Virus record (IMG/VR): IMGVR_UViG_3300027784_001663
Source: a virus
Length of the DNA: 64,000 nt
Direction: 5' to 3' (one strand)
The notes below the pieces were generated by a model that worked only from the letters and a program-made list of their open reading frames with translations, made no database searches and had not been told where the DNA came from. The position numbers and the translations under genes are program-made. Positions 6,805 through 10,166 of this stretch are shown one piece after another; position 1 is the stretch's first letter; each line of letters starts with the position of its first letter.

Positions 6805-8736
6805 TTATTTAAACATGTCTACTGAATCTATCCCTTTTTTTATTGCTTTCTTTATATCTACTCTTATTTTAGCAAACTTTTTTGCAACCTGCTCTTTATC
6901 CTTCATAGCTTTCTTCCCTAAATATCCCCACTCAGCTAGAGATTCTATAGCCCTAGTGTCTACGACAGAATCAGTTTTTCTAGCTAAATCTTCTAAACCA
7001 CTATAAGGTTGATTATCTTCTATATTTTGAGCAGAAGCAGATCCCAAACCCTTACACAAAAGAGAAGGACGAATATAAATCTTTTTTCCACTCTTTTTTT
7101 CAACTTTATAAGAAACCTTACAATGATTTATATCTCTAGGTAAAAATTCTATATTTAATTTATTTGTAAACTCTTTTTCATAACTGTTTATTTTATCTTG
7201 GTTACCTCTTCCAGACTCTACATCTAATAAAGAACAAATAAATTCAGCTGTATAATTAGCTTTTAAATAACAAGTTAAATATGAATTAAATGCATAACAA
7301 CACGCATGACTTTTATTAAATCCATAAGAAGCGAAAGGAACTATAAATTCTTTCCAATATTGTTCAGCAACATCTTTAGGAACTTCATTTTTTACACAAC
7401 CTTCAATAAATTGCTTTTCAAATTTCTCCATCAAATGCTTCTTTTTCTTTCCAATAGCTTTTATCATTATATAACCATCAGTAATAGAAAACCCAGCTAA
7501 AGTATTACATATTTGCATAAGTTGTTCTTGATAAATAATTAAGCCATAAGTATTCTCTAAAAAAGGTTTCACATGCTTTTCAATAGAAGGATGGAAATAA
7601 TCTATTCTAGATTCTCCTTTTTTTCTTGAACAATATAATGGAATATTAGCCATAGGCCCTGGCCTATATAAAGAAATTGCTGCCATTATATCATCAAAAC
7701 TATCTACCCCAATATCTTTCATTGTATTCTGCATTCCATACTGCTCACACTGGAACACTCCCCCTAAATTACCTTCTCTATATAATTTAAAAGTTTTTTT
7801 ATTATCTAAAGAAATATTTTTTATATCTATATCTATATCATAATTTTCTTTTATTAATTTTATAGTTCTCTTTATCACTGTTAAAGTAGATATAGCTAAA
7901 ATGTCAAATTTAATCAAACCCAACGATTCTAACTGTTCTCCAGTAAATTGAGTAGCCAGTAAATCCCCTCTAGCCTTCCTTAAAGGAGCAATTTGCTTAA
8001 TGGGGATATCTGATACAACGATTCCAGCAGCGTGTGCAGAAAAATTTGCGATTATCCCTTCAATATCTCTGAGATAATCCATAATGCCGTCATATTTATC
8101 CATTTCTCTAGCAAAATCTGGACAATACTGGTAAGCATCATCAACAGATTTAATTACCTGCATATCTTGATTTTGATCTTTAATTTTGATAATACCCTTT
8201 TTAGGAAAAGGCTCTAATATTTCATCAACCCTAGCTTTATTTTCGCTTCTGTAGGCATCAGCTCCTTTGTGAAAGGCATTAGCAACATCTAAAGCCTTTG
8301 ATACCCTAGTTACACAGGATTTGAATTTAAGCAAACCATGTGTCCCGATATTACCAACATTTTCTCTTCCATATTTATCTATAATATAGTCATATACACT
8401 ATCTCTCATATCATCATCAAAATCTGTATCTATATCAGGAAAACCTGCTCTAGCAAAAGCTCTACGTTTAGGTAAAAAATCTCCATTAGGTTTACAATCT
8501 GTTAAATTTAAAGCATAAGCTGTCCAGCTATTTATAACATTCTTATTTCCTTTTTTACCCTTGTATTTTTTCCATATATTATAAAATGACTCTAGATTAT
8601 TAACCCCATTAATCCCCTCAGTCATAGATAATACTTTTAATTCTTTTTTTACATCATTTATTATCTTTTCATTCTTACCAGGATTTAATCTATCAACCTC
8701 TTCTAATATTTCTTTTACTATTTGTTTATTATCCAT
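6805..8736 (-). CDS. dnaE: DNA polymerase III alpha, C-terminal piece (catalytic palm, fingers, HhH)
   Basis: FPDIDTDF, HAAGIVVS, GLIKFDILA, GVFQCE, LYRPGPM, IYQEQLM, YGFNKSHA; ends after the HhH region in SVDMFK. Confidence 0.92.
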   Translation of the reverse strand: MDNKQIVKEILEEVDRLNPGKNEKIINDVKKELKVLSMTEGINGVNNLESFYNIWKKYKGKKGNKNVINSWTAYALNLTDCKPNGDFLPKRRAFARAGFPDIDTDFDDDMRDSVYDYIIDKYGRENVGNIGTHGLLKFKSCVTRVSKALDVANAFHKGADAYRSENKARVDEILEPFPKKGIIKIKDQNQDMQVIKSVDDAYQYCPDFAREMDKYDGIMDYLRDIEGIIANFSAHAAGIVVSDIPIKQIAPLRKARGDLLATQFTGEQLESLGLIKFDILAISTLTVIKRTIKLIKENYDIDIDIKNISLDNKKTFKLYREGNLGGVFQCEQYGMQNTMKDIGVDSFDDIMAAISLYRPGPMANIPLYCSRKKGESRIDYFHPSIEKHVKPFLENTYGLIIYQEQLMQICNTLAGFSITDGYIMIKAIGKKKKHLMEKFEKQFIEGCVKNEVPKDVAEQYWKEFIVPFASYGFNKSHACCYAFNSYLTCYLKANYTAEFICSLLDVESGRGNQDKINSYEKEFTNKLNIEFLPRDINHCKVSYKVEKKSGKKIYIRPSLLCKGLGSASAQNIEDNQPYSGLEDLARKTDSVVDTRAIESLAEWGYLGKKAMKDKEQVAKKFAKIRVDIKKAIKKGIDSVDMFK

Positions 8737-8741
8737 AATAT

Positions 8742-10166
8742 TTAGTACCTATCAACCCCACCTAAATCATCTTCTAATTCTCTATCTTCTTCTAAATCAT
8801 CTTGTTCATAATTTAAATTTATTCCTATATCTTCAAACCCAAAATCTGAATCTTTAATAAATCTAAGATCATCAAATCCTAGAAAACGATTCCATAATAA
8901 TCCCTTAGATAATGGATCAACACCATAAGTTATTCCTAAACATCTTAAAAGGACACTCGCATAACCAGATCCTCGTCCACACCCGATCAAAACTCCCCTG
9001 TCACTTGCTTCATCTATATAATCTTTTACTATTAAAAAATATTTTGCAAAATCATAATTATTATTTTCTTTCGCTACTTTTACATCTCTAAGTTCCATCT
9101 TTAAGGCATCAATATGTTCTGGACTATTACTCCATCCAATTTCTTTTAATCCATCCCATGCTAACTTTTCCATATAATCATAACTATCATTATATTTTTT
9201 CGGTATTTTGAATTTAGGTAATCTCATACCCCCAAATAAATGTCTTTCTATATCATTAGTATCTATTCTATCAGCCATTTCCATAGTGTTAAATAAACAC
9301 TGAGGACTACTTCCAAATATTTCTTCCATCTCTGAAGCATCCTTTAAATAAAATTCATCATGATCATATTTTATATGATTAGGATCTGATAAACAGCTAG
9401 CAGTACTCATAGCCATTAAAACTTCCTGCGACTTTGCTTGTCCCTTTTTAATATAATGACTATCATTTGTGCATAAAACGGGTATTCCAGTCTCAGAAGA
9501 CAATTTAAAAATATCTGGAATTATAAGTTTTTCAGCTCTAATACCATGATACATAACCTCGAGAAAAAAATTACCATTGAGAATCTCATTAAAACATCCA
9601 GCTACTTTTTTTGCTTTTTCATATTTATCAAATAGTAAATGACGATTTATCAATCCTTTCAAGCAAGCAGATCCTCCCATAACACCTTCAGAATGTTTAT
9701 CTAGAATATCTAAATCTATGCGAGGGTCATGATAAAAACCTTTAAGCCAAGCTTCTTGGGATAAAGTACAAACGTTCTTATAGCCCTCATAATTCATAGC
9801 ATATAAATTTAAATGATAATTTCCTTTGCGACCCTCTGGTTGTAATGATTTAGGAACTTTATCTTTATCTTTAATATCATTTTGACCAATATCCATTTGT
9901 CTAGAAATATAAAACTCTTGCCCTAAAATCGGCTTTATGGGTTTATATTCTATAGAATTGCCTTTTTTATCTTTTTCCTGCCGAGCATATTTTAAGAAAT
10001 TAATCCACCCCATAACATTTCCATGGTCTGTTAAAGCAATAGCAGGAAATTCTTTTTTTCTAGCAGTCATTACTAAATCTTCTAATTTAGCAAGACCATC
10101 AAAATGAGAAAATGAACTATGAACATGAAAATGAACAAAATTTTTATTTGAAAAAGCATTGGACAT
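8742..10166 (-). CDS. dnaE: DNA polymerase III alpha, N-terminal piece (PHP domain plus GRGS palm segment)
   Basis: HFHVHSSFSHFDG, LTDHG, GQEFY, YHL, SACLKG, NDSHY, YFLIVKD, GCGRGSG, LGIT..VDP...LLWNRFL. Confidence 0.92.
   Translation of the reverse strand: MSNAFSNKNFVHFHVHSSFSHFDGLAKLEDLVMTARKKEFPAIALTDHGNVMGWINFLKYARQEKDKKGNSIEYKPIKPILGQEFYISRQMDIGQNDIKDKDKVPKSLQPEGRKGNYHLNLYAMNYEGYKNVCTLSQEAWLKGFYHDPRIDLDILDKHSEGVMGGSACLKGLINRHLLFDKYEKAKKVAGCFNEILNGNFFLEVMYHGIRAEKLIIPDIFKLSSETGIPVLCTNDSHYIKKGQAKSQEVLMAMSTASCLSDPNHIKYDHDEFYLKDASEMEEIFGSSPQCLFNTMEMADRIDTNDIERHLFGGMRLPKFKIPKKYNDSYDYMEKLAWDGLKEIGWSNSPEHIDALKMELRDVKVAKENNNYDFAKYFLIVKDYIDEASDRGVLIGCGRGSGYASVLLRCLGITYGVDPLSKGLLWNRFLGFDDLRFIKDSDFGFEDIGINLNYEQDDLEEDRELEDDLGGVDRY

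What the first reader, a model, noticed from the sequence alone, without database searches (positions are those of the whole stretch)
6805..10166. Intein-free split DnaE with a duplicated palm segment and an active site divided between two polypeptides
Gene 1 ends after the GRGS motif (8967-8978) and LLWNRFL, then runs into an acidic tail. Gene 2 starts 5 nt later (out of frame, own AGGT RBS) and holds the catalytic PDIDTD (8422-8439) and KFD. Its first ca. 95 aa are a decayed second copy of the same segment: KKELKVL...NSWTAYALNLTDCKP versus KMELRDV...ASVLLRCLGITYGVDP, with GRGS lost. No intein motifs are present, and the break is far upstream of the cyanobacterial split-intein site. The arrangement looks like partial duplication followed by subfunctionalisation into a heterodimeric C-family polymerase.
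Basis: partly seen in the sequence, partly recalled or inferred. Interest (0 to 1): 0.75.

Follow-up and report, generated by a model that had tools for sequence, protein, structure and literature searches.

The report
Two-gene phage DnaE with duplicated palm
An uncultured salt-lake phage encodes its bacterial-type DNA polymerase as two adjacent genes cut through the catalytic domain, next to an old internal duplication of about 100 residues; over a hundred related huge phages share the arrangement, so one active site is probably built from two proteins.

Summary
Gene 1 (10166-8742, minus strand, 474 aa) has an intact PHP domain and the first part of the palm with an invariant GRGS. Gene 2 (8736-6805, 643 aa) starts 5 nt later and has PDIDTDF, the third Asp (KFD), thumb, fingers, HhH and a C-terminal clamp-like SVDMF.

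Both genes map onto the same roughly 65-100 residues of canonical DnaE. Copy 1 keeps GS and has lost DxD. Copy 2 keeps DxD and has lost GS.

The split is not an artefact. More than 120 protein clusters of each half exist on contigs up to about 500 kb. The spacer varies from an overlap to 2.4 kb holding up to four ORFs. A second salt-lake sample bridges the junction.

No intein motifs were found. Single-chain relatives carry both degenerate copies, so the duplication and the complementary decay most likely came before the fission. At least one relative looks re-fused, and one has lost the duplication.

A complex model (0.88 against best control 0.01) rebuilds the DnaE fold from both chains. That pass may come from memory of solved DnaE structures.

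The closest published case is the split minimal Pol III alpha of T4-like jumbo phages (Iyer et al. 2021). This scan has already found the same family in other genomes. I class it as a new variant of a known kind.

The parts
8742..10166 (-). Gene 1 (474 aa): PHP domain, N-terminal (NTP-binding) part of the palm, and an acidic tail
   Evidence: The ORF is. Pfam gives PHP at 1e-41 (aa 12-207) and DNA_pol3_alpha profile 2-98 (aa 331-433). Taq DnaE matches at 2.7e-58. More than 120 homologous clusters of 440-494 aa exist.
9546..10133 (-). PHP domain core (aa 12-207) with all nine metal ligands (H14 H16 D23 H48 E84 H118 C168 D235 H237)
   Evidence: See; the ligands are invariant in 44 family members. 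That it acts as a proofreading exonuclease, as in Mtb DnaE1, is inferred from established knowledge.
8829..9149 (-). Copy 1 of the duplicated palm segment (gene 1, about aa 340-446)
   Evidence: Aligns to Taq 398-472. W425, R427, F428, L429 and F431 are invariant.
8967..8978 (-). GRGS (G397-S400), the nucleotide-binding GS motif of the Pol-beta-like fold
   Evidence: Invariant in the family. In relative P0244 an intein sits exactly at GRG|S.
8835..8852 (-). Degenerate DxD strand of copy 1, D439-S-D441-F-G-F444
   Evidence: Aligned to Taq PDIDTDF at the conserved spacing. D441, F442 and G443 are invariant but the first Asp varies. In the complex model D441 touches gene 2 V67.
8745..8834 (-). 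Variable acidic linker and conserved C-terminal ..DRELEDDLGGVDRY
   Evidence: G470, R473 and Y474 are invariant among the 44 tail-bearing members aligned. 89 of 120 homologs carry such an end. It is absent from the short (about 444 aa) forms and from fused forms. It is not placed confidently in the complex model.
8737..8741 (-). 5-nt spacer between the two genes
   Evidence: In relatives the same site is a 17-nt overlap (L008), 14 nt, 460 nt, or holds 1, 3 or 4 small ORFs.
6805..8736 (-). Gene 2 (643 aa): copy 2, the catalytic Asp residues, thumb, fingers, HhH, and a clamp-motif-like C-terminus
   Evidence: The ORF is. Pfam gives DNA_pol3_alpha profile 66-260, DNA_pol3_finger at 9e-53 and HHH_6. 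Taq DnaE matches at 1e-89.
8419..8724 (-). Copy 2 of the duplicated palm segment (gene 2, aa 5-106)
   Evidence: hhalign against canonical DnaE: probability 92%, E 5.6e-7 for aa 5-84. phmmer places aa 50-151 on Taq 407-513. The region is strongly conserved in the family.
8539..8550 (-). Pseudo-GS loop G63-N-K-N66, in the position of GRGS
   Evidence: See the alignments. N66 is invariant and G63 nearly so.
8422..8439 (-). PDIDTD (P100-D105): the two catalytic Asp residues D101 and D103
   Evidence: Invariant and aligned to Taq PDIDTDF.
7903..7911 (-). KFD (K276-D278): the third catalytic Asp
   Evidence: K276 and D278 are invariant. Aligned to Taq GLLKMDFLG.
6811..6825 (-). C-terminal SVDMF, resembling the E. 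coli alpha QADMF clamp-binding motif
   Evidence: The C-termini of relatives keep [SD]xD[IM]F. Gene 2 ends at profile position 917 of 1146 in NF004226. Clamp binding is inferred.

Best explanation
The two genes encode the two subunits of one DnaE-type (C-family) replicative polymerase of a huge uncultured phage.

Gene 1 supplies the PHP domain and the nucleotide-binding half of the palm. The PHP domain is a probable proofreading exonuclease because all nine metal ligands are kept. The palm half is the strand, the GRGS motif and the two helices that follow.

Gene 2 supplies the metal-binding half of the palm (D101, D103, D278), the thumb, the fingers, the HhH domain and a C-terminal clamp-binding-like peptide. 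The OB and tau-binding end of cellular DnaE is absent. The active site is therefore assembled across the subunit interface.

The cut lies inside an old internal tandem duplication of about 100 residues of the palm, and the two copies have decayed in complementary ways. The leftover halves are the dead DFGF strand and tail of gene 1 and the helices and pseudo-GS loop of gene 2. They are conserved, predicted to be folded, and pack against each other, so they probably act as the clasp that holds the subunits together.

The likely history is: a single-chain DnaE, then an intragenic duplication with complementary decay, then fission in the linker. Later events in some lineages include re-fusion, loss of the duplication, and insertion of small ORFs at the break.

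Shown here: the architecture, its conservation, the overlap and the existence of fused relatives. Inferred: heterodimer formation, the shared active site, the clasp role and the order of events.
For: Domain content and the overlap.

Complementary invariance: GRGS in gene 1 and P100, D101, D103, D105, D278 in gene 2. The decayed halves are also invariant at D441-F-G and N66.

More than 120 clusters of each half at 50-70% identity, on contigs up to 502 kb.

Variable spacing and intervening ORFs rule out recoding.

The junction is identical in a contig from a second sample.

Fused relatives carry both decayed copies.

P0245, a single-chain relative without the duplication, keeps GS and helices A and B of copy 1 and the RxFARxGFPDID of copy 2. 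This indicates which elements make the working palm.

An intein sits at GRG|S of copy 1 in P0244, which fits that motif being the functional one.

The complex model scores 0.88 (median of three runs) against a best control of 0.01. That mark was reached by 58 of 80 solved complexes and 2 of 110 mismatched pairs; the counts hold only roughly because my own alignments were used. The runs agree in at least 88% of their contacts, and the partner's pLDDT is at least 86. The interface includes gene 1 residues 390-403 and 426-444 and gene 2 residues 39-68, 88-96 and 99-107.

The AlphaFold2 model of the natural single-chain relative P0136 has pLDDT 91.5. Its insert is ordered (block means 80-95, except one block at 65 and residues 448-450 below 50). 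The whole model matches Mtb DnaE1 7PU7 (TM 0.72, E 1.6e-62).
Against: There is no biochemical evidence. The complex model may pass from memory of solved single-chain DnaE structures, so it shows likeness rather than binding.

The two copies are not significantly similar to each other directly.

The conserved GGVDRY tail is not placed by the model and is missing in about a quarter of homologs, so its role is open.

The order of events is not settled. The base of the family tree is a polytomy that holds both split and fused forms. An AU test does not reject a single clade of all split forms (p 0.25).

DSSP on the P0136 model does not show the pseudo-GS segment as a strand, so a neat reciprocal strand swap is not demonstrated.
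Confidence: 0.8

Rival explanations
1. Fission or partial gene duplication came first. Two overlapping genes arose from a tandem partial duplication of dnaE and then decayed in complementary ways as separate genes. All single-chain forms that carry both copies would then be secondary fusions.
For: P0136 is nested among split forms in both the N-terminal and C-terminal trees, inside sets with 98-99 SH-aLRT support, so fusion does happen. The base of the family is unresolved and includes the split forms P0282, P0365 and P0202.
Against: The fused forms with both copies are diverse. P0247 is sister to the rest of the family. The P0241/P0243/P0244 clade is basal. P0296 lies outside the family in both trees yet has the same insert. 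An AU test allows all split forms to be one derived clade.
Confidence: 0.15
2. Gene 2 is a self-sufficient polymerase. Gene 1 is only an accessory PHP exonuclease or proofreading subunit, and its palm fragment is a docking remnant.
For: Gene 2 holds all three catalytic Asp residues and the whole DNA-binding part. It also keeps a conserved loop (G63, N66) where GS would be.
Against: GS is lost in copy 2 throughout the family, while GRGS in gene 1 is invariant. An intein targets GRG|S in P0244. The non-duplicated relative P0245 keeps the GS unit of copy 1, not that of copy 2. The model places gene 1 residues 390-403 in the palm core next to gene 2 residues 99-107 and 285-289.
Confidence: 0.05
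3. The halves are rejoined into one polypeptide, either by a cryptic or decayed split intein or by programmed frameshifting or read-through.
For: Inteins are common in this family at other sites, and one sits at GRG|S. Earlier scan notes on other genomes report dead-intein tails in other split DnaE genes.
Against: No intein family hits either protein or either broken end, even at E 10. The gene 2 N-terminus is homologous to the DnaE palm, not to an intein. Gene 1 ends in a conserved true C-terminus. The spacers range from an overlap to 2.4 kb with up to 4 ORFs.
Confidence: 0.02
4. The split is an assembly error or the gene is a decaying pseudogene.
For: None was found.
Against: Both halves are conserved across more than 120 independent clusters. 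Catalytic residues are invariant. The source-sample contig covers the region at depth 14, and an identical 291-nt contig from a second sample bridges 8488-8778.
Confidence: 0.01

Closest known systems
Single-chain bacterial DnaE / DnaE1 (M. tuberculosis 7PU7 and 5LEW, T. aquaticus 2HPI and 3E0D, E. coli 2HNH)
   Same: The domain order is the same: PHP, palm, thumb, fingers, HhH. The same catalytic motifs are present: GS, DxD and the third Asp. The nine PHP ligands are intact, as in Mtb and Taq.
   Different: The protein is encoded as two polypeptides cut between GS and DxD. About 100 palm residues are present twice. There is no OB fold or tau-binding C-terminal domain.
Split minimal Pol III alpha of group 2.2 (T4-like) jumbo phages (Iyer, Anantharaman, Krishnan, Burroughs, Aravind 2021, PMC7824862)
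   Same: It is an intein-free split of a C-family palm into an N-terminal NTP-binding protein and a C-terminal Mg- and DNA-binding protein, found in large phages.
   Different: That version is minimal, with no PHP domain and none of the other Pol III domains. Its genes are encoded far apart, and it accompanies a family B polymerase. The paper describes no duplicated segment. Here the enzyme is near full length, the genes are adjacent, and the break lies in a duplication.
Cyanobacterial split DnaE with the naturally split DnaE intein (Wu, Hu and Liu 1998; Caspi et al. 2003, cited in PMC3919608)
   Same: dnaE is encoded in two genes.
   Different: That break is at ..AEY|CFNKSH in the fingers, which corresponds to about residue 471 of gene 2 here, and it is healed by trans-splicing. 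Here the break is about 370 residues upstream, no intein halves are present, and the halves must stay non-covalent (the position of the cyanobacterial site is from my own knowledge).
Fractured genes and homing-endonuclease-split phage genes (Dassa et al. 2009, PMC2677866; split gp43 and nrdA of T4-like phages, from my own knowledge)
   Same: An essential phage replication gene is cut in two. The break site collects extra ORFs in relatives. In L008 gene 2 is cut again by a free-standing LAGLIDADG ORF.
   Different: The ORFs at this break have no recognisable endonuclease or intein domain. In this window nothing lies between the halves.

Membership tests
DnaE-type DNA polymerase III alpha (C-family) | N-terminal PHP domain | tested here: met
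   PF02811 at 1e-41 in gene 1. The nine metal ligands are invariant.
DnaE-type DNA polymerase III alpha (C-family) | Pol-beta-like palm with the GS motif, DxD and a third Asp | tested here: met
   GRGS is at 397-400 of gene 1. D101, D103 and D278 are in gene 2. All are invariant.
DnaE-type DNA polymerase III alpha (C-family) | All catalytic motifs on a single polypeptide | tested here: not met
   There are two ORFs with a stop codon, a 5-nt spacer and a frame change. The split is conserved in relatives.
DnaE-type DNA polymerase III alpha (C-family) | Fingers and (HhH)2 domains | tested here: met
   PF17657 at 9e-53 and PF14579 at 2.1e-9 in gene 2.
DnaE-type DNA polymerase III alpha (C-family) | C-terminal OB fold and tau-binding domain (typical DnaE1) | tested here: not met
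   Gene 2 ends at profile position 917 of 1146 in NF004226. There is no OB hit.
DnaE-type DNA polymerase III alpha (C-family) | DNA polymerase activity | not testable with these tools
   This needs expression of both proteins and a primer-extension assay.
Split minimal Pol III alpha of group 2.2 jumbo phages (PMC7824862) | Break between the NTP-binding and Mg-binding subdomains of the palm | tested here: met
   The break lies between GS (gene 1) and DxD (gene 2).
Split minimal Pol III alpha of group 2.2 jumbo phages (PMC7824862) | Minimal: no PHP domain and none of the other Pol III domains | tested here: not met
   PHP, fingers and HhH are all present.
Split minimal Pol III alpha of group 2.2 jumbo phages (PMC7824862) | Halves encoded by distant genes, alongside a family B polymerase | tested here: not met
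   The genes are adjacent. No other polymerase turned up among the window ORFs that were scanned. Only 64 kb of the genome is available.
Split-intein DnaE (cyanobacterial type) | N- and C-intein halves at the broken ends | tested here: not met
   No intein family hits the proteins, the gene 1 tail or the gene 2 N-terminus.
Internal tandem duplication of the palm segment (defines this phage DnaE clade) | Two copies of the canonical segment around GS..DxD, one without DxD and one without GS | tested here: met
   The same feature is present in the fused relatives.

The most novel reading that the evidence does not exclude
The duplicated, complementarily decayed palm segment may be more than a scar. 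Its two dead halves are the D441-F-G strand with the invariant GGVDRY C-terminus in gene 1, and the G63/N66/S70 pseudo-GS unit in gene 2. Together they may form a second, pseudo-active-site module. That module would lock the subunits together and may have gained a function of its own, such as binding a nucleotide or a partner protein, or acting as an assembly checkpoint between the exonuclease and polymerase subunits. The module also seems able to move between DnaE lineages: P0296 is a canonical-type DnaE that carries the family's insert. It may also make fission and re-fusion nearly neutral.
Probability: 0.2. Interest if true: 0.75.

Novelty: new variant of a known kind. Interest (0 to 1): 0.6.

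Why it matters
C-family polymerases are normally single chains about 1,000-1,200 residues long. Here nature has cut one between the nucleotide-binding and metal-binding halves of the active site. The cut is widespread and under clear selection.

The same clade also holds single-chain, re-fused and de-duplicated relatives, which serve as built-in controls.

This makes it a clean case for studying how proteins split by duplication followed by complementary decay. It allows testing whether a replicase active site can work across a subunit interface. It could also guide the design of split DnaE or PHP-exonuclease tools.

It also matters for annotation. The halves are currently labelled "PHP domain-containing protein" or "hypothetical", and each scores below the cut-offs of the full-length DnaE models.

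Tried and rejected
No whole genome is held for this window.

Direct comparison of copy 1 with copy 2 gave nothing significant, either by BLASTP or profile against profile.

Single gene 2 N-terminal pieces cut before PDID gave no Pfam hit on their own. Only the family profile did.

I tested whether the gene 1 tail (acidic linker plus GGVDRY) is a decayed copy of the helix that follows DxD (RDxVxxYxxxKYG). hhalign found nothing, so I dropped the idea.

The ORFs lying between the halves in L001 and L005 showed no endonuclease, intein or other informative family. A homing-endonuclease origin of the split is therefore unsupported.

Alignment A3, which mixed fused forms with both halves, placed copy 2 on copy 1, so I did not use it for folding.

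A neat reciprocal strand swap between the copies is not shown. Only one confident contact supports it (gene 1 residue 441 with gene 2 residue 67), and DSSP on the P0136 model does not call the pseudo-GS segment a strand.

An AU test did not reject a single clade of all split forms (p 0.25), so I do not claim multiple fissions or re-fusions as proven.

No RNA holder was listed among the sequencing runs, so nothing can be said about expression. Parts of the stretch have no cover in runs X2 and X3, and these gaps are not interpreted.

No clamp, clamp loader or second polymerase turned up among the window ORFs that were scanned.

The named-phage collection holds no close relative. The best hits are at most 36% identical and are canonical single-chain genes.
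Full report
**What is there.** On the minus strand, gene 1 (10166-8742, 474 aa) ends in TAA. Five nucleotides later, in another frame and behind an AGGT, gene 2 (8736-6805, 643 aa) begins.

Pfam finds PHP (1e-41) and DNA_pol3_alpha profile positions 2-98 in gene 1. In gene 2 it finds DNA_pol3_alpha positions 66-260, DNA_pol3_finger (9e-53) and HHH_6.

Against solved structures, gene 1 matches Taq DnaE at 2.7e-58 and gene 2 matches it at 1e-89.

**The overlap.** Gene 1 residues 372-446 align to Taq 398-472. 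Gene 2 residues 50-151 align to Taq 407-513. The same overlap appears in Pfam and NCBIfam; in NF005298 gene 1 covers 2-408 and gene 2 covers 365-904.

- Copy 1 keeps GRGS and the LLW.RFL helix. Its equivalent of PDIDxDF reads DSDFGF.
- Copy 2 reads GNKN where GRGS should be. It keeps the SW.AY.L..T...P helix and has an intact PDIDTDF.

Compared directly, the two copies are not significantly alike (BLASTP E 4.7; profile against profile E 0.2). A family profile of the gene 2 N-terminus cut before PDID does match a canonical DnaE profile, also cut before PDID, at 92% probability and E 5.6e-7. The match covers gene 2 residues 5-84.

**Not an artefact.** The large protein collection holds more than 120 clusters (at 90% identity) of gene 1-like proteins. 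They are 440-494 aa long, 51-67% identical to gene 1, and sit on contigs up to 502 kb. It holds more than 120 gene 2-like proteins whose first 130 residues are 50-70% identical to gene 2.

The distance between the halves varies widely:

- 5 nt in this window;
- a 17-nt overlap in L008;
- 14 nt and 460 nt in two Tara contigs;
- one ORF in L005 and in the P0006 locus;
- three ORFs in L001 and four in L007.

This variation rules out frameshifting or read-through.

The window comes from a salt-lake metagenome. The likely source run covers the region without a single difference. An identical 291-nt contig from a second salt-lake sample bridges 8488-8778.

No intein family hits either protein, the gene 1 tail or the gene 2 N-terminus.

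**Conservation pattern.** In gene 1 the invariant residues are the nine PHP metal ligands, G397-R-G-S-G401, W425/R427/F428/L429/F431, D441-F-G443 and G470/R473/Y474. In gene 2 they include N66, S70, T79, P83, F87, R91, R96, P100, D101, D103, D105, F106 and K276/D278.

Each chain therefore holds one half of the catalytic constellation under strict selection. The dead halves are also under selection.

About three quarters of gene 1 homologs end in a variable acidic linker followed by ..DRELEDDLGGVDRY. The rest stop right after DFGF. Gene 2 and its relatives end in [SD]xD[IM]F, which resembles the E. coli alpha clamp-binding QADMF. Gene 2 stops at position 917 of the 1146-position E. coli-type model, so the OB and tau-binding end is missing.

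**Relatives that show the history.**

- L002 (P0241, 1102 aa), P0243, P0246, P0247, P0296 and P0136 are single chains carrying both copies with the same complementary decay.
- P0244 is likewise a single chain with both copies, and it has an intein inserted exactly at GRG|S of copy 1.
- P0245 (994 aa) is a single chain without the duplication. It joins copy 1's GS unit and LWERFL helix to copy 2's RVFARPGFPDID.
- Canonical phage DnaEs (L003, L004) have one copy.

I built maximum-likelihood trees of the 400 residues after DxD and of the part upstream of the GS motif (PHP domain and first part of the palm). Both give a strongly supported family clade (96-99 SH-aLRT). P0247 is sister to the rest. 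The base is a polytomy containing both fused and split forms. P0136 is nested next to this window's proteins. P0245 lies inside the family.

P0296 groups with the canonical P0264 in both trees. It nevertheless carries the family's signature insert (SDFGF ... NSWLAYWSGLTSKKPDG), which suggests the insert can move by recombination.

An AU test does not reject a single clade of all split forms (p 0.25). The safest reading is therefore this: duplication and decay happened in a single chain and fission came later. Re-fusion (P0136) and de-duplication (P0245) are probable but not proven.

**Models.** I folded gene 1 (full length) with gene 2 (residues 1-520), each with a family alignment.

- The complex scored 0.88 (median of three runs) against a best control of 0.01.
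- That mark was reached by 58 of 80 solved complexes and 2 of 110 mismatched pairs. The counts hold only roughly because my own alignments were used.
- The runs agree in at least 88% of their contacts, and the partner's pLDDT is at least 86.
- Because single-chain DnaE structures are solved, the pass may come from memory. It shows that the two chains can rebuild the DnaE fold, not that they bind.

The interface includes gene 1 residues 390-403 (the strand plus GRGS) and 426-444. In gene 2 it includes residues 39-68, 88-96 and 99-107 (the DxD strand). Residue 441 of gene 1 touches residue 67 of gene 2, and residue 393 of gene 1 touches residues 285 and 289 of gene 2. The tail (448-474) is not placed.

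An AlphaFold2 model of the natural single-chain relative P0136 has mean pLDDT 91.5. Its insert is well ordered (block means 80-95, except one block at 65 and residues 448-450 below 50). The model matches Mtb DnaE1 7PU7 (TM 0.72, E 1.6e-62) and the Taq and E. coli alpha subunits. DSSP does not call the pseudo-GS segment a strand, so I do not claim a symmetric strand swap.

**Context.** The genes lie in a replication module on the minus strand. The module holds a Cas4-like exonuclease, the primase Toprim core, a RecA/UvsX-like protein, two unknown ORFs, a conserved small acidic-tailed ORF, gene 2, gene 1, PRPP synthetase, the primase zinc-ribbon ORF, a DnaB-like helicase and an AAA ATPase. ORFs of up to 2219 aa follow. 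L005 and L001 share this synteny.

**Comparison with what is known.** The nearest published case is the minimal Pol III alpha of group 2.2 jumbo phages. It is split into NTP-binding and Mg/DNA-binding proteins encoded far apart (PMC7824862). The break point is of the same kind. That enzyme, however, lacks PHP and the other Pol III domains, accompanies a family B polymerase, and has no described duplication.

Surveys of bacterial C-family polymerases mention only the intein-split cyanobacterial genes and frameshift fragments (PMC3919608, PMC12926913). INPHARED phages hold no close relative. PHROGs has a family of "unknown function" (phrog_7513) with a 461-position profile that matches gene 1.

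This scan's own notes show that the same family was reported from other genomes, including the 461-kb contig that I reached independently as L001.

**Verdict.** This is a real, conserved, intein-free two-gene DnaE with a duplicated palm segment. It is a new variant of a known kind. Interest is moderate to high, mainly for protein evolution and polymerase mechanism.

Noticed in passing
window 14599-15219 (-) and 2586-3290 (-): The DnaG-type primase also seems to be in two genes. A 206-aa ORF carries only the CHC2 zinc ribbon (PF01807, 1.3e-17). A 234-aa ORF about 11 kb away carries the DNAG_N and Toprim core. L005 likewise has a stand-alone 204-aa zinc-ribbon gene next to DnaB.
   Followed up: partly
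window 6413-6781 (-); L001 8003-8335; L005 8780-9112: A conserved ORF of 110-122 aa always follows gene 2. It has an acidic C-terminal tail that ends in an aromatic motif (..DFDEIDF here, ..DFDFLS in L001). It has no family hit. It could be a replisome accessory protein with an SSB-like or clamp-binding tail.
   Followed up: partly
window 10187-12090 (-): Four consecutive small ORFs end in ..HLDI, ..LLDI, ..LLDI and ..MLDI. In L001 the ORFs inserted between the two polymerase genes end in ..LGIK. These recurrent C-terminal motifs have no known meaning.
   Followed up: no
L001 3573-5994; L005 6313-6768; L007 4954-6615; P0006 locus: The break between gene 1 and gene 2 is a landing site for one to four small ORFs of unknown function in relatives. 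None has a recognisable homing-endonuclease domain.
   Followed up: partly
P0244 (1426 aa); P0203, P0231, P0184, P0148; L008 6630-7769: Inteins occur in relatives at GRG|S of copy 1 and at or next to the GFN(K)S-H motif of gene 2. In L008 gene 2 is split again, with a free-standing ORF between the pieces that has a faint LAGLIDADG hit.
   Followed up: partly
P0296 (1039 aa) against P0264 (986 aa): P0296 groups with a canonical single-copy DnaE in both the N-terminal and C-terminal trees. It nevertheless carries the family-type insert with its signature motifs, which suggests the insert was transferred laterally between DnaE lineages.
   Followed up: partly
window 25975-63999 (-): A run of very large ORFs (1045, 2219, 665, 1920, 1938, 711, 1856 and more than 1072 aa). 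The three of them that were scanned (1045, 665 and 711 aa) have no PHROG hit. All genes in the 64 kb lie on one strand. GC is 22-31% and GC skew is strongly negative throughout.
   Followed up: no
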